A stretch of DNA of 10,045 nt from a virus (lineage: Duplodnaviria; Heunggongvirae; Uroviricota; Caudoviricetes), in IMG/VR virus record IMGVR_UViG_2703718777_000022; one strand, written 5' to 3'. A program made the translations under genes and the position numbers. Below the pieces are notes generated by a model, which saw nothing but the letters and a program-made list of their open reading frames with translations, did no database searches and was not told where the DNA came from. Positions 6,585 to 9,784 of the stretch are shown one piece after another. Each line of letters begins with the position of its first letter. Position 1 is the first letter of the stretch.

Positions 6585-7979
6585 ATGGGACAAATTTTCA
6601 CCCCCCGCCCGTATCAAGACCTGATCATCAATCACCAAATCGAAACCCTGCGCGGCAACATCTGGGCAGGGATGGGGATGGGTAAAACCGTAGCAACACT
6701 CACTACGCTGGAAGATCTTTTCATGGCAGGGGCAGAAACACGCCCCGCGCTGGTCCTCGCGCCGCTACGTGTTGCAGCAAACACCTGGCCGGATGAAGCA
6801 ATGAAGTGGGGGCATTTGCGCAATATCGAGGTGCAGCCGATTGTTGGTAACGCCAAAGCGCGCTCTGCAGCGCTGGCGAACAGCAACGCGAGCGTTTTCA
6901 CCATCAACTACGATAACCTTGTCTGGCTGGTTGAGGAATTGGGAGAACGATGGCCGTTCGGTACTGTCATTCCAGATGAAAGCACCCGGCTAAAATCCTT
7001 CCGGCTGCGAGGTGGTGGTAAGCGCGCGGCGGCGCTGGGCAAAGTGGCGCATAAGTATGTCCGGCGCTGGATAAATCTCACCGGTACGCCAGCACCGAAC
7101 GGCCTGGTAGATTTGTGGGGACAATCGTGGTTTGTGGACCAAGGGCAACGTCTCGGGCGCACTTACGGCGCGTTTACCTCACGCTGGTTCAACTCGATAC
7201 AGTTTCCGGGACAGAGCTGGACTAAACTGGAGCCTTTTGCTCACTCACAGGGTGAAATACAGCGAGCATTAGCCGATGTGACCCTCTCGCTGGATGCGGC
7301 CGACTGGTTCGATATCAAAGACCCCATCCATAACGTAATCCGCGTGGATATGCCGCCGAAGGCCCGTCAGCAGTATCGTGAAATGGAAAAGGAAATGTTC
7401 CTCGAGCTGAATGGCGAAGGCATCGAAGCACCGAACGCCGCGGCAAAGACACTGAAGTGTCTGCAAATCGCCAGTGGCGCAGTATACACAGACGACACCG
7501 GAAGTTGGTCAGAACTGCATGACACCAAACTACAGGCGCTGGACAGCATACTGACCGAAGCAGCTGGCGCACCGGTGCTGGTTGCTTATCACTGGAAACA
7601 CGATCTTGAACGCTTGCTTAAAGCATTCCCTCGCGGTCGTCACCTCGACCAGGATCCACAGACACTGCGCGACTGGAATTCCGGAAAGATTCCTGTTCTC
7701 TTTGCACACCCAGCCAGCGCGGGCCACGGCCTGAACATGCAGGACGGCGGGAATATACTGGTATTTTTCTCACACTGGTGGGACCTGGAGCAGTATCAGC
7801 AAATTATTGAACGTATCGGCCCCACCAGGCAGATACAGGCCGGACACAATCGTCCGGTATTTATTCACCACATTATTGCTACCGACACTATGGATGAAAT
7901 GGTGATGGAGCGGCGCAACTCAAAACGAACAGTGCAGGACATCCTGCTCGATGCCATGAAAAAGAGAGGTATAGCATGA
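6585..7979 (+). CDS. SNF2-family (DEAD/DEAH-like superfamily 2) helicase
   Basis: 464 aa. PYQ Q-motif near the N-terminus, Walker A GMGMGKT, motif II VIPDEST, and a C-terminal helicase region with GHGLNMQ and QQIIERIGPTRQ (motif VI-like). Weak Shine-Dalgarno. Stop overlaps the next start (ATGA at 7976-7979). Confidence 0.85.
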   Translation: MGQIFTPRPYQDLIINHQIETLRGNIWAGMGMGKTVATLTTLEDLFMAGAETRPALVLAPLRVAANTWPDEAMKWGHLRNIEVQPIVGNAKARSAALANSNASVFTINYDNLVWLVEELGERWPFGTVIPDESTRLKSFRLRGGGKRAAALGKVAHKYVRRWINLTGTPAPNGLVDLWGQSWFVDQGQRLGRTYGAFTSRWFNSIQFPGQSWTKLEPFAHSQGEIQRALADVTLSLDAADWFDIKDPIHNVIRVDMPPKARQQYREMEKEMFLELNGEGIEAPNAAAKTLKCLQIASGAVYTDDTGSWSELHDTKLQALDSILTEAAGAPVLVAYHWKHDLERLLKAFPRGRHLDQDPQTLRDWNSGKIPVLFAHPASAGHGLNMQDGGNILVFFSHWWDLEQYQQIIERIGPTRQIQAGHNRPVFIHHIIATDTMDEMVMERRNSKRTVQDILLDAMKKRGIA

Positions 7980-8176
7980 GCGAGAAACCCGACGATTTAC
8001 TCACCCCGGATGAAGTATGCCAAAAGTTAGGTATTACACAGAAAACGCTATGTGAGTGGAATATTAAGCATCGTCATCGGGCTATCCTGGCACCAATTCG
8101 TTTCAGTGCAAAAGTAGTTCGTTATGAGCGCCGAAATGTCGACGCTTTTATTCAAAAATGTCGCAGCCAGTATTAA
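7976..8176 (+). CDS. AlpA/excisionase-like helix-turn-helix DNA-binding protein (putative Xis or regulator)
   Basis: 66 aa with GAGAGG 6 nt upstream. LLTPDEVCQKLGITQKTLCEW...VVRYERRNVDAFIQK fits the AlpA/Xis-type HTH pattern. It lies next to the integrase, and its stop codon overlaps the integrase stop on the opposite strand. Confidence 0.6.
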   Translation: MSEKPDDLLTPDEVCQKLGITQKTLCEWNIKHRHRAILAPIRFSAKVVRYERRNVDAFIQKCRSQY

Positions 8177-9570
8177 CCTCGCCGCCGTAGCAATGCCACC
8201 TGCGCAAGTATGCTCCGCTCGTGAGCCTCGAAAGCTTCGCGCTTCAACGCAATCTCTTCCTGTAAAATCTCATCAGAAAAGTCGTAATGTTCTGCCATCG
8301 GGTCATCTGACTTACTGGAGTGGTGAAGGCAAAGGAGGCTGATTTCCCTTCGGTCTGATCGGGAATAGCCTCTTTCCTTCATCAAGGCAATAACATTGCT
8401 CTTAAGGAATTTACGGCACATCGTATTAAATGCACCGTCTTTCCCTTTAACAGTCCCATCATGTTTTATTCCTTTTACAGCCCCGTCCGGGCTGTATGTT
8501 TTCACCAGCTTATCCAGTGATCGTTTTGAAAATGGCTGCATTGGATCACGTGGCTGCAAAAATACATAATCCCTGTTGCACTCAGGAACTGAATCACGCC
8601 AGGCTTTCTGCTCGTCGATAATCCGCCGGATCTCAGGCGTTATCGGCAGGCGGAAAGCCTTTTGTGTTTTCATAGCCCCTCGCATGCCGATAACCCCTTC
8701 CGGATAAACAATTTCACCAGCCTCCTCGTGAACGTAGTCCCAGCGCAGGTTATGGACATTAATCGGGCGAACGCCGGTGATGATCATGAAGCGAACAGCA
8801 TTCTTCTGGTGTACAGAGGTGCAGGCGGCAACATTGAGCCAGAGCCGGGCGATTGACTCAATATCGGTAAAAAGCCGTGTGGGGGTGGGTTTCTGTACGC
8901 GGGAGGAAACATAATCATCTGGCAGACTGGCGGCAACATTGCGGCCGTTGCAAAGAGTAGGTGCGCAGAACTTCCAGAACCGACGGAGCTCGGCAAACAA
9001 CTCTAGGGCGTTATTGTTCGAGCGAGTGGCGATCCACTCGTCCAGTACTTCCACCAGCCGATTGTATGTTACGTCGCTGAACACCTCTCGCTCGCCGAAC
9101 GTTGCTTTAATCCGGTCGATACGCACCCCGTAGGTTGTGAAACTGTCCGGGCTCAGCTTCTGCCGTGCTACTTTAGCTTTGAGGTCATCCCGGTACATTT
9201 CCAGCGCTGCATGTACGGACTCTGCCCGCAGTCCACCGTCAGCCATACCTAGTGCTTTTTCGCGCGCCAGTTGAATAGCGAGCTCCGGCCACTCGCCAAG
9301 CTTTTTACCTTTGAGGCCCATCTTTTTTGGAAACTCGGCGTAAAATGTAACCTTACCGGCTTTGCTGAAATCGATACGGAGATAGTTCTCTTTTTCGTAT
9401 TTGGAACGGCGAGCCACGCCGGAAGCAGCGAGGATGATTTTGGCAGCAGCAACACAGATTTTCATGTGTGCGCTGGTATAGGGGGGTTTACAGGCGTCCC
9501 ATTTTTCAGATGCGGCTAAAACATCGTCATTATTGGGGCTATCCGGATTATGTGTTACAGTGCGCGGCAT
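8173..9570 (-). CDS. tyrosine-type phage integrase
   Basis: The N-terminal region resembles an arm-binding domain (YLRIDFSKAGKVTFYAEFPKKMGLKGKKLGEWPELAIQLAREKA). The C-terminus has an LLCLHHSSKSDDPMAEHY box matching the LGH...Y catalytic tyrosine region, and an Arg in TGVRPINV. The expected H-x-x-R box is not canonical (NTMCRKF). I place the start at the ATG 9568-9570 (AAGGA 6 nt upstream) rather than the track's TTG at 9574-9576. Confidence 0.75.
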   Translation of the reverse strand: MPRTVTHNPDSPNNDDVLAASEKWDACKPPYTSAHMKICVAAAKIILAASGVARRSKYEKENYLRIDFSKAGKVTFYAEFPKKMGLKGKKLGEWPELAIQLAREKALGMADGGLRAESVHAALEMYRDDLKAKVARQKLSPDSFTTYGVRIDRIKATFGEREVFSDVTYNRLVEVLDEWIATRSNNNALELFAELRRFWKFCAPTLCNGRNVAASLPDDYVSSRVQKPTPTRLFTDIESIARLWLNVAACTSVHQKNAVRFMIITGVRPINVHNLRWDYVHEEAGEIVYPEGVIGMRGAMKTQKAFRLPITPEIRRIIDEQKAWRDSVPECNRDYVFLQPRDPMQPFSKRSLDKLVKTYSPDGAVKGIKHDGTVKGKDGAFNTMCRKFLKSNVIALMKERGYSRSDRREISLLCLHHSSKSDDPMAEHYDFSDEILQEEIALKREAFEAHERSILAQVALLRRRG

Positions 9571-9704
9571 TCTCAATCCTTATCTGCGTAGGCGCAGAAA
9601 ACAAGCTCACACATACAAGTCTTTTCTACGGGACAAAATGCAATGTGTTGCGGTTTTGTGTTGCTGGACTGAGTTTATCAAGGTTAAATACACTGGATCA
9701 ACAT

Positions 9705-9752
9705 ACAGTAAGTTAATGACAGTAAAGCATACAAACTCGATACAACTTACTG
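9705..9752. repeat. short direct and inverted repeats between the integrase and yfhL; candidate integrase-binding or attachment-site sequences
   Basis: cagtaagtt (9706-9714) is the exact reverse complement of aacttactg (9744-9752). acagtaa occurs as a direct repeat at 9705-9711 and 9719-9725. The true att core cannot be defined without the other end of the element or an empty-site sequence. Confidence 0.2.
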
Positions 9753-9784
9753 ATTTTAAAATGATTTAACGGTAATCCATTGAA

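What the first reader, a model, noticed from the sequence alone, without database searches (positions are those of the whole stretch)
7976..9784. Integration next to yfhL with convergent xis-like and int genes whose stop codons overlap
The element abuts a protein-coding gene rather than an obvious tRNA. The AlpA/Xis-like gene ends the helicase operon and converges on the integrase, and the two stops share the sequence tattaa at 8171-8176. The integrase has a non-canonical H-x-x-R region (NTMCRKF). The int-yfhL spacer contains short direct and inverted repeats that may be arm-type or core sites.
Basis: partly seen in the sequence, partly recalled or inferred. Interest (0 to 1): 0.45.

Follow-up and report, generated by a model that had tools for sequence, protein, structure and literature searches.

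The report
Prophage end that rebuilds yfhL
This is the integrase end of a 41-kb E. coli prophage that inserts inside the first codons of the ferredoxin gene yfhL, not beside it, and carries its own copy of the gene's start so the reading frame stays whole; the site and integrase family were already reported, so it is a tidy but largely ordinary case.

Summary
The genes are real and at the stated coordinates: xis-like HTH gene 7976-8176 (+), tyrosine integrase 8173-9570 (-), and stop codons sharing 8174-8175.

The att site is not in the int-yfhL spacer. An 18-bp core (AATTGTGATATGTGTGAA, window 9815-9832) lies inside yfhL, at codons 11-16 in the first CxxCxxC motif. A second copy lies 41,403 bp away, next to a stranded native yfhL start.

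The "yfhL" start codon, codons 1-10 and the 214-bp upstream spacer are therefore phage DNA. They rebuild an intact ORF with two substitutions (A2S, K8R).

The attB rebuilt from the two junctions is uninterrupted in 5266 of 5426 complete E. coli genomes. The other 160 are the number that carry this int-yfhL junction. IMG/VR contigs show the predicted attP.

Integrase homologues sit about 215 bp from yfhL in 34 of 36 genomes from several gammaproteobacterial groups. TGTGTT repeats keep fixed positions around the core.

The integrase has the lambda-Int fold and R268, K301, H417 and Y429, but no recognisable HxxR. Its family signature is KGxxGAFNTxCRK.

yfhL as a prophage site and a 23-bp att in Serratia phage OS31 are already published. 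This is a new member of a known kind.

The parts
6585..7979 (+). SNF2-type helicase gene. It is the last large gene of the replication operon and forms a block with xis and int that is conserved among E. coli lysogens.
   Evidence: Pfam SNF2-rel_dom E=3e-12. Window 6591-9784 is about 97% identical in roughly 160 E. coli genomes, while only 19 also share the region upstream.
7976..8176 (+). Candidate excisionase (recombination directionality factor): a 66-aa HTH_17 / MerR-type winged-helix protein. Its start is coupled to the helicase stop (ATGA).
   Evidence: HTH_17 E=1.3e-5, 25.8 bits against a cut-off of 27. TIGR01764 'excise' E=0.008. PHROG 4745 E=4e-27 and phrog_66 'excisionase' E=7e-6. 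A homologue lies convergent with int in 25 of 36 loci. The equivalent gene is annotated as excisionase in phage OS31.
8173..9570 (-). Tyrosine integrase of 465 aa. It has a lambda-Int-like three-domain fold and an atypical Box II (K375-G-K-D-G-A-F-N-T383-M-C-R386-K).
   Evidence: PF00589 at 30.4 bits, covering only residues 246-359. AF2 model pLDDT 85.8. Foldseek top hits are full-length lambda Int, 1z1b E=9e-8 and 1z19 TMt 0.74. Invariant residues are R268, K301, K375, G376, T383, R386 and H417; Y429 is nearly invariant. hhalign against 71 canonical integrases aligns 376 columns at probability 100%.
8173..8176 (.). Four-nt overlap (TTAA) of the convergent xis and int ORFs, stop codons included.
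   Evidence: Sequence. The same -4 arrangement occurs in 11 of 36 related loci and in OS31.
9571..9814 (.). int-proximal arm of the attachment site. It is phage DNA made of the 214-bp spacer plus the 30-nt yfhL-start mimic.
   Evidence: In the metagenome attP contig L043 this stretch is joined through one core to the other prophage end. Spacer length is 213-216 bp in most related loci.
9605..9614 (.). Near-invariant box GCTCACACAT. Its reverse complement contains TATGTGTGA, the same 9-mer found in the core.
   Evidence: Alignment A2 of 17 genera. It sits at a fixed position in most loci.
9644..9664 (+). Two direct TGTGTTGC repeats 13 bp apart, 171 and 158 bp from the core. They are candidate arm-type Int-binding sites.
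   Evidence: Found at -141 and -128 from the yfhL ATG in nearly all loci. All 4 window matches cluster here against 0.67 expected. Further copies at +58, +70, +28(-) and +117(-) lie in the other arm, and OS31 has copies at most of the same positions.
9691..9710 (.). Dyad CACTGGATCAACATACAGTA (CTG-N10-CAG). It resembles a LexA box (15 of 20 matches to TACTGTATATATATACAGTA) and its role is unknown.
   Evidence: Single match in the window. A CTG-N10-CA[GAC] element sits at -92 or -93 in 27 of the 34 related loci scanned, but the right half is CAA or CAC in many.
9785..9814 (+). Phage-borne surrogate start of yfhL (ATG plus codons 2-10, [10 protein letters not shown]). It replaces the native MALLITKKCI.
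   Evidence: The native 5' end ATGGCGTTGTTAATCACTAAAAAATGCATC is stranded at the far junction. The surrogate is present in attP contigs and in the OS31 phage genome. It differs from the native sequence at 10 nt but changes only 2 amino acids.
9815..9832 (.). att core: an 18-bp identity segment, AATTGTGATATGTGTGAA, equal to yfhL codons 11-16 (NCDMCE) in the first CxxCxxC motif.
   Evidence: Exact direct repeat 41,403 bp apart in NZ_CP027548.1. The attB rebuilt across it is 100% identical to empty sites. OS31's published 23-bp att covers the same codons.
9833..10045 (+). Host-derived remainder of yfhL (codons 17-86 plus stop).
   Evidence: Identical to yfhL of empty-site genomes. Fer4 Pfam domains.

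Best explanation
Window 6585-9832 is the integrase-proximal end of a 41.4-kb temperate phage integrated by site-specific recombination inside the 5' coding region of the E. coli ferredoxin gene yfhL.

How it works:
- The tyrosine integrase (8173-9570, - strand) recombines a phage attP with a bacterial attB. The shared core is 18 bp (AATTGTGATATGTGTGAA), encoding N11-E16 of YfhL within the conserved CxxCxxC iron-sulfur motif.
- attP carries, immediately int-side of the core, a look-alike of the yfhL start: ATG plus 9 codons, preceded by a 214-bp region. Integration therefore swaps the native start and leader for the phage's copy. It leaves a full-length 86-codon yfhL (A2S, K8R).
- The native start is stranded 41 kb away as an 18-codon stub.
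- The 214-bp spacer and the opposite arm carry TGTGTT repeats at fixed distances from the core. These are most likely arm-type sites for the integrase's N-terminal domain, as in lambda.
- The 66-aa HTH protein encoded convergently with int, at the end of the helicase operon, is the likely excisionase.

Status of each step:
- Shown: position of the core, the empty site, attP, restoration of the ORF, conservation of the architecture.
- Inferred: arm-site function, Xis function, expression of the rebuilt yfhL, any SOS control through the LexA-like dyad.
For: - An 18-bp exact direct repeat flanks 41,403 bp of phage genes. The native yfhL 5' end lies beside the far copy.
- The attB rebuilt from the two junctions is 100% identical to real empty sites. 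5266 of 5426 complete E. coli genomes have it uninterrupted. The remaining 160 equal the number carrying this int-yfhL junction.
- The predicted attP is observed. IMG/VR contig 3300018477_000015 (L043) joins the far end (L001 42331-43601) to the near end (L001 2161-5315) through one core. L083 and L086 are also attP-type.
- Serratia phage OS31 has a 76.5% identical Int and was mitomycin-induced. It has a 23-bp att at the same yfhL codons, the surrogate start ATGGCTTTACTAATTACAAAGCGG, and a convergent excisionase with a 4-bp overlap (PMC7556043).
- 35 of 36 Int homologues in GTDB representative genomes have a yfhL homologue nearby. In 34 a full-length match (to at least residue 80 of 86) lies divergent, about 215 bp away in most.
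- The surrogate differs from the native start at 10 of 30 nt but at only 2 of 10 residues. Among phages it differs mostly at synonymous sites.
- RefSeq annotates the rebuilt gene as intact yfhL in all listed lysogens.
- TGTGTT copies lie at -264, -171, -158, +58 and +70 (+ strand) and at -364, +28 and +117 (- strand). OS31 has copies at six of these eight positions, plus an imperfect one at +58.
- The Int model matches full-length lambda Int. Canonical R, K, H and Y positions align to R268, K301, H417 and Y429.
Against: - No sigma-70-like promoter was found in the spacer for either int or the rebuilt yfhL. Expression of the restored gene is unproven, and earlier surveys listed yfhL as 'disrupted' (PMC3603311).
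- The integrase has no recognisable HxxR.
- This particular prophage has a frameshifted baseplate gene and a partial tail-fibre gene, so it may not make particles.
- The exact E. coli attP string was not found in viral or metagenome scans. The attP contigs differ by 1 nt or more.
- The Xis assignment rests on a sub-threshold HTH_17 hit plus synteny.
Confidence: 0.9

Rival explanations
1. One reading: the element integrated beside an intact host yfhL, with the att core somewhere in the 9577-9784 spacer.
For: The annotated yfhL ORF is full length and starts 214 bp from int. The spacer contains repeats.
Against: The only long direct repeat between the two prophage ends lies inside yfhL. The native yfhL start is found at the other end. 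The rebuilt attB matches 5266 empty sites exactly. The spacer is contiguous with phage DNA in attP contigs.
Confidence: 0.02
2. The yfhL-like start on the phage exists only because the recombinase needs flanking sequence similarity. The rebuilt gene is silent, so integration in effect inactivates yfhL, as Bobay et al. 2013 scored it.
For: No promoter-like site was found in the spacer. There is no obvious Shine-Dalgarno sequence before the surrogate ATG. The literature lists yfhL as disrupted.
Against: All 34 full-length related loci keep an in-frame ATG or GTG and an open 10-codon surrogate. Changes are concentrated at synonymous sites. This is not expected if only DNA similarity mattered. The spacer length and the AT-rich region before the ATG are conserved.
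Confidence: 0.25
3. The locus is a fixed, decayed prophage remnant whose int/att system no longer works. The missing HxxR would be a sign of decay.
For: The structural genes of this copy carry frameshifts. Some E. coli and Shigella copies have a truncated int. HxxR is absent.
Against: The atypical motif is invariant across a family at 23-96% identity, so it is not decay. The int ORF here is intact. attP-form contigs exist. OS31 is inducible. Occupancy is patchy, 160 of 5426 genomes from many host sources.
Confidence: 0.1
4. The dyad at 9691-9710 is a LexA operator that makes int (or the rebuilt yfhL) SOS-inducible. This would tie integrase supply to prophage induction, while xis is supplied by the early operon.
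For: 15 of 20 matches to the LexA consensus, with both CTG and CAG present. It holds a fixed position in 27 of the 34 related loci scanned, and several read CTGT-N8-ACAG.
Against: The fourth base is G, not T. In 15 loci and in OS31 the right half is CAA or CAC, which should weaken LexA binding. No promoter was found overlapping it. One match by chance is not rare: 46 of 200 shuffles have at least one.
Confidence: 0.3

Closest known systems
Serratia phage vB_SspS_OS31 integration module (MT843276; Bujak et al. 2020, PMC7556043)
   Same: Int is 76.5% identical. The att (published as 23 bp) lies at the same codons of the host two-[4Fe-4S] ferredoxin gene. It has a surrogate yfhL start, a convergent HTH_17 'excisionase' overlapping int by 4 nt, and TGTGTT repeats at most of the same offsets.
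   Different: The phage backbone differs: a lambdoid siphovirus rather than this myovirus-type prophage with a PolA/SNF2/VRR-NUC replication module. The sections of the paper I read do not describe restoration of the gene, the arm repeats or the active-site anomaly.
E. coli prophages and Stx2b prophages reported at yfhL (Bobay et al. 2013, PMC3603311; PMC10675304; PMC12029490)
   Same: Same host gene named as the insertion site.
   Different: Those papers list yfhL as 'disrupted' or simply as an insertion site. The passages I searched give no core sequence and do not mention that the ORF is rebuilt. I did not check whether the Stx2b prophages use this integrase.
Lambda Int / attP (arm-type plus core-type heterobivalent integrase with Xis)
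   Same: Best structural match, including the N-terminal arm-binding domain. There is a short identity core, repeated motifs in both arms, and a small accessory DNA-binding protein.
   Different: Sequence identity is about 14%. xis is convergent with int rather than upstream and co-transcribed. There is an extra 50-residue N-terminal helical extension. HxxR is not recognisable. The target is a protein-coding gene.
Gene-restoring integrations such as phage 21 / e14 in icd and phages in tRNA genes (Campbell's class; from established knowledge)
   Same: attB lies inside a gene, and the phage carries a diverged duplicate of the displaced gene end so that function is kept.
   Different: Those cases replace the 3' end. 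Here the 5' end is replaced, so the phage must also supply the start codon, translation signals and promoter.
Type IB topoisomerase active site (K-x-x-R in place of H-x-x-R; from established knowledge)
   Same: Profile alignment puts an invariant Lys (K375) at the position of the recombinase His.
   Different: The aligned Arg position is variable here, and the invariant Arg (R386) lies 8 residues further on. There is no evidence of any evolutionary link.

Membership tests
Tyrosine recombinase / phage integrase (PF00589, lambda-Int type) | Catalytic-domain fold | tested here: met
   PF00589 at 30.4 bits against a cut-off of 27.1. PHROG 1 integrase E=1.5e-26. The AF2 model matches lambda Int: 1z1b E=9e-8, 1z19 TMt 0.74.
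Tyrosine recombinase / phage integrase (PF00589, lambda-Int type) | Arg I, beta-hairpin Lys, His/Trp III and the Tyr nucleophile | tested here: met
   R268, K301, H417 and Y429 are invariant or nearly invariant in the family. They align to the canonical residues.
Tyrosine recombinase / phage integrase (PF00589, lambda-Int type) | Box II H-x-x-R (His II and Arg II) | tested here: not met
   There is no HxxR. hhalign and MAFFT align it to K375-G-K-D378, where position 378 is variable. The invariant R386 lies 8 residues downstream. The C-terminal 120 aa give no Pfam hit. The AF2 helix start suggests T383-x-x-R386 could be the structural equivalent. This remains unresolved.
Tyrosine recombinase / phage integrase (PF00589, lambda-Int type) | Conservative recombination between attP and attB through a short identical core | tested here: met
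   An 18-bp direct repeat at both junctions, empty sites in 5266 genomes, and attP contigs.
Tyrosine recombinase / phage integrase (PF00589, lambda-Int type) | N-terminal arm-binding domain with matching arm-type repeats | tested here: inconclusive
   Foldseek aligns full-length lambda Int including its N-domain. PF13356 is recorded for family member P0087. TGTGTT repeats are position-conserved in both arms. Binding itself was not tested.
Excisionase / recombination directionality factor (HTH_17, TIGR01764) | Excisionase-type winged-helix DNA-binding domain | tested here: inconclusive
   HTH_17 at 25.8 bits, below the cut-off of 27. TIGR01764 at 16.6 bits, below 28.8. phrog_66 and phrog_1553 'excisionase' at E=7e-6 and 7e-5.
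Excisionase / recombination directionality factor (HTH_17, TIGR01764) | Genetic linkage to its integrase across different phage backbones | tested here: met
   A homologue lies convergent with int in 25 of 36 loci, and in the unrelated backbone of OS31.
Excisionase / recombination directionality factor (HTH_17, TIGR01764) | Required for excision and inhibits integration | not testable with these tools
   Needs genetics or in vitro recombination.
AlpA family (PF05930) | Match to the Phage_AlpA profile | tested here: not met
   No PF05930 hit at E <= 0.01.
Gene-restoring prophage integration | Core inside the ORF and an in-frame phage-borne surrogate of the displaced end | tested here: met
   The core is codons 11-16. 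The surrogate is ATG plus 9 codons in frame, giving an intact 86-codon ORF.
Gene-restoring prophage integration | The restored gene is expressed and functional in lysogens | not testable with these tools
   No promoter was predicted. Only indirect support comes from protein-level conservation of the surrogate.
LexA (SOS) operator | CTGT-N8-ACAG dyad overlapping a promoter | tested here: inconclusive
   The window has CTGG-N8-ACAG, 15 of 20 matches to the consensus. Its position is conserved but the right half-site is not. No overlapping promoter was found.

The most novel reading that the evidence does not exclude
This widespread, demonstrably active integrase family has rewired the supposedly universal tyrosine-recombinase active site. 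It would have an invariant Lys (K375) where the Box II His sits, no Arg at the canonical Arg II position, and a relocated invariant Arg (R386) two helical turns downstream. It uses this site to target the CxxCxxC-coding core of yfhL across several gammaproteobacterial groups while re-supplying the gene's start.
Probability: 0.3. Interest if true: 0.55.

Novelty: new member of a known kind. Interest (0 to 1): 0.33.

Why it matters
- Annotation. Prophage callers place this boundary wrongly. 72 of 80 IMG/VR loci end at the yfhL stop. Four INPHARED 'phage genomes' found here belong to this site: the one inspected holds host tadA, pgpC and yfhH, and three end at the helicase, so they lack xis and int. 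Surveys score yfhL as disrupted although its ORF is rebuilt. Knowing the 18-bp core fixes the boundary to the base.
- Biology. This is a clean example of the rarer 5'-end version of gene-restoring integration, in which the phage must supply start codon, leader and promoter. The target is an iron-sulfur-motif coding sequence conserved enough to serve one integrase family from Escherichia to Shewanella.
- Enzymology and tools. An active integrase without a recognisable HxxR is a useful test case for which Box II residues are really needed. A conserved, non-essential landing site might be usable for cross-species integration vectors.

None of this overturns current understanding.

Tried and rejected
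- tRNA and Rfam scans of the window found nothing relevant.
- Searching PDB sequences with the Int, alone or as a family profile, gave no integrase hit. NCBIfam gave none either.
- Pfam on the C-terminal 120 aa of six family members gave no PF00589 hit, so the catalytic C-terminal half is invisible to sequence profiles.
- hhalign against lambda Int alone aligned only as far as K235. A profile of 71 canonical integrases was needed.
- The promoter and terminator scan gave nothing in the spacer, and terminator counts matched chance.
- The four vB_EcoM-606R2-type 'phage' records looked like independent attP evidence. The one inspected (ON470579) turned out to be a mis-cut prophage from the same site, so all four were set aside.
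- Exact-string scans for the E. coli attP junction in viral and metagenome contigs found nothing. attP was found only through the protein-anchored scan, because the real contig differs by 1 nt.
- I looked for inverted core-type half-sites around the 18-bp core by eye and found no convincing symmetry. The core-site assignment is left open.
- I considered lambda cII-type TTGC-N6-TTGC activation for the TGTGTTGC pair. The spacing is N9, and the motif also occurs in the other arm, so arm-type sites are the better reading.

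
Full report
**Origin and layout**

The window is 100% identical to E. coli 2014C-3061 (NZ_CP027548.1) and to several bovine isolates. The ORF list and Pfam scan give, left to right:
- a phage replication module (DUF2800 nuclease, Enc34-type ssDNA-binding protein, family-A DNA polymerase, DUF4406, VRR-NUC, Arc-like proteins, Rha, SNF2 helicase);
- a 66-aa HTH gene at 7976-8176 (+);
- a 465-aa tyrosine integrase at 8173-9570 (-);
- a 214-bp spacer;
- an 86-codon yfhL ending at the last base of the window.

No tRNA, tmRNA or Rfam family is present.

**The observation**

The coordinates and the stop overlap are correct. TAA for the + gene is 8174-8176. The - gene's TAA is the complement of 8173-8175. 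The HTH gene's ATG overlaps the helicase TGA.

The same 4-nt tail-to-tail overlap occurs in 11 of 36 homologous loci and in Serratia phage OS31. Other loci have gaps of 0-100 nt or an inserted gene. It is therefore a common compaction rather than a requirement.

**Where the att site really is**

In the source chromosome the phage genes run from int to a point just short of yfhH. The only long repeat shared by the two ends is an exact 18-mer. One copy lies at window 9815-9832, inside yfhL. The other lies 41,403 bp away.

Beside the far copy lies ATGGCGTTGTTAATCACTAAAAAATGCATC. This is the native yfhL start (MALLITKKCI), preceded by the native leader and yfhH. It now closes after 18 codons.

Beside the near copy the window has ATGTCTTTACTAATTACTAAACGCTGTATT ([10 protein letters not shown]). 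Joining the far left flank to the near right flank gives a 484-nt attB. That attB is 100% identical to real genomes and uninterrupted in 5266 of 5426 complete E. coli genomes. The remaining 160 equal the number that carry this int-yfhL junction.

The empty site therefore exists, and the crossover lies within codons 11-16 (NCDMCE) of yfhL, in the first CxxCxxC cluster motif. The first 10 codons, the start codon and the entire 214-bp 'intergenic' spacer are phage DNA.

**Direct evidence for attP**

- A protein-anchored scan of IMG/VR returned 80 loci.
- 72 are prophage cut-outs that stop at the yfhL stop codon.
- Metagenome contig IMGVR_UViG_3300018477_000015 (L043) joins the far prophage end to the near end through a single core. 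It reads surrogate-core-AATCAAATAAAAACACATTT....
- One further locus has the same junction, and L083 and L086 are also attP-type.
- Serratia phage OS31 was sequenced after mitomycin induction. It carries a 76.5% identical integrase, a published 23-bp att at the same codons, and its own surrogate start.

**Conservation of the architecture**

Among 36 integrase homologues in GTDB representative genomes, 35 have a yfhL homologue nearby. The genomes span enterobacteria, Veronia, Salinivibrio, Shewanella, Pseudoalteromonas, Zobellella, Oceanisphaera and Oceanimonas.

In 34 loci a full-length match lies divergent from int, usually 213-216 bp away. All 34 have an in-frame ATG or GTG and an open surrogate.

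The E. coli surrogate differs from the native start at 10 of 30 nt but at only two residues, both conservative. Phage copies differ from each other mostly at synonymous sites. This argues for selection on the encoded N-terminus and not only on DNA similarity. It is the basis for inferring that the phage 'repairs' the gene.

Expression is not shown. The promoter scan found nothing in the spacer.

**Spacer content**

Alignment of 17 genera shows islands of near-invariance in otherwise divergent sequence:
- GCTCACACAT at 9605-9614;
- two TGTGTTGC repeats 13 bp apart at 9644-9664;
- a CTG-N10-CAG dyad at 9693-9708.

All four TGTGTTRC matches in the window fall within 9449-9664, against 0.67 expected.

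In the rebuilt attP, TGTGTT copies lie at -264, -171, -158, +58 and +70 on the + strand. Copies at -364, +28 and +117 lie on the - strand, all counted from the core start. OS31 has copies at six of these eight offsets and an imperfect one at +58. This matches the pattern expected of arm-type integrase sites.

The dyad matches the LexA consensus at 15 of 20 positions. Its right half is CAA or CAC in many relatives, so LexA control is only a possibility.

**The integrase**

- Pfam and PHROG profiles match only up to about residue 358.
- PDB sequence searches find nothing.
- The AF2 model (pLDDT 85.8) is most similar to full-length lambda Int.
- In 31 family members at 33-96% identity, R268, K301, K375, G376, F381, T383, C385, R386 and H417 are invariant. 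Y429 is nearly so.
- Only 29 representatives of 1.84 billion protein clusters match at E <= 1e-30, so the family is small.
- MAFFT alignment with canonical integrases, and hhalign against a profile of 71 of them (376 columns, probability 100%), agree. Canonical Arg I, Lys, His III and Tyr align with R268, K301, H417 and Y429.
- Both methods place the canonical H-G-F-R-x-x-F-S-T on K375-G-K-D378-G-A-F-N-T383. That puts a Lys at the His position, a variable residue at the Arg II position, and the invariant R386 eight residues downstream.
- The AF2 secondary structure instead starts the Box II helix at M384. This makes T383-x-x-R386 the geometric equivalent of HxxR, but residues 371-380 have low confidence.

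Either way the motif is non-canonical and family-wide, so it is not decay. The enzyme family is active in nature, as the empty sites, attP contigs and inducible OS31 show. Which residues complete the active site remains unexplained.

**The HTH protein**

It matches HTH_17 just below Pfam's cut-off and matches excisionase PHROGs and TIGR01764 weakly. It does not match AlpA. It travels with int in 25 of 36 loci and in the unrelated OS31 backbone, where it is annotated as excisionase.

Because it is the last gene of the helicase operon and convergent with int, xis and int cannot be co-transcribed. A reasonable inference is that int has its own promoter in the arm while xis is supplied only when the early operon is on. 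No terminator separates them, so the transcripts should overlap as antisense RNA. This is inference only.

**What was already known**

- yfhL is listed among genes 'disrupted' by prophages in Bobay et al. 2013.
- It was reported as a 'new' Stx2b prophage site in 2023-2025.
- The OS31 paper gives the 23-bp att in the host ferredoxin gene and notes that many prophages use homologous genes.

Restoration of a gene by a phage-borne duplicate end is classical for tRNA genes and for icd (established knowledge). The additions here are:
- the base-level core in E. coli;
- replacement of the 5' end with the ORF rebuilt;
- the conserved arm layout;
- the occupancy figure (160 of 5426);
- the Box II anomaly.

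**Verdict**

This is a real feature whose observation is largely correct and whose interpretation is partly correct. The key correction is that integration is inside yfhL, not beside it. It is a new member of a known kind, of modest interest.

Noticed in passing
L038 (ON470579.1 1-5186); also ON470582, ON470588, ON470593: GenBank/INPHARED 'complete phage genomes' of the vB_EcoM-606R2 type. ON470579 contains host tadA, pgpC (yfhB) and yfhH, and three of the records stop at the helicase gene. They are mis-delimited prophages from this same yfhL site and lack xis and int.
   Followed up: partly
L042-L121 (IMG/VR loci): 72 of 80 IMG/VR viral contigs carrying this integrase end exactly 475 bp upstream of int, at the yfhL stop codon. 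Prophage callers therefore take the rebuilt yfhL as the last phage gene.
   Followed up: yes
window 4908-5084 (+) and 5053-5382 (-): Two Arc/ribbon-helix-helix paralogues with almost identical N-termini (MSKRDDPQLRVRIP...). They are encoded convergently and their 3' ends overlap by 32 bp. This may be a regulatory switch of the prophage.
   Followed up: no
window 1446-2045 (-): A 199-aa ORF that looks membrane-associated from its hydrophobic stretches. It lies on the opposite strand, wedged between the ssDNA-binding protein gene and the DNA polymerase gene. RefSeq calls it hypothetical; it may be a moron.
   Followed up: no
L025 and L026 (E. coli ECMA0423; Shigella flexneri SFBU1023): The integrase next to yfhL has a premature stop after 133 codons, and only residues 1-366 are matched. 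These are decaying copies of the element at the same site.
   Followed up: partly
L024 (Raoultella scottii NZ_JARXNH020000036.1): A 90% identical integrase homologue with an unrelated upstream region. It has no conserved spacer and no yfhL within 3 kb, and is the one exception to the int-yfhL linkage.
   Followed up: partly
L001 43600-43640 (native yfhH-yfhL leader, far junction): The native yfhL leader contains TTTGTGTTG 21-29 nt upstream of the ATG. It resembles the phage arm repeat (T/A)TGTGTTG. This may be chance, or a bacterial-side Int contact.
   Followed up: no
L001 37873-40823 (prophage of 2014C-3061): The baseplate J gene is frameshifted and the tail-fibre gene is partial and frameshifted. 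This copy may be unable to form infectious particles even if it can excise.
   Followed up: no
window 6591-9784: The helicase-xis-int-arm block is about 97% identical in roughly 160 E. coli lysogens. Only 19 share the Rha region just upstream, which gives a sharp mosaic boundary at the helicase start codon.
   Followed up: partly
Int residues 364-379 (window about 8434-8481, - strand): The low-confidence loop before Box II reads AVKGIKHDG / TVKGK-DG, an apparent tandem duplication. It may explain the displaced register of the HxxR region.
   Followed up: no
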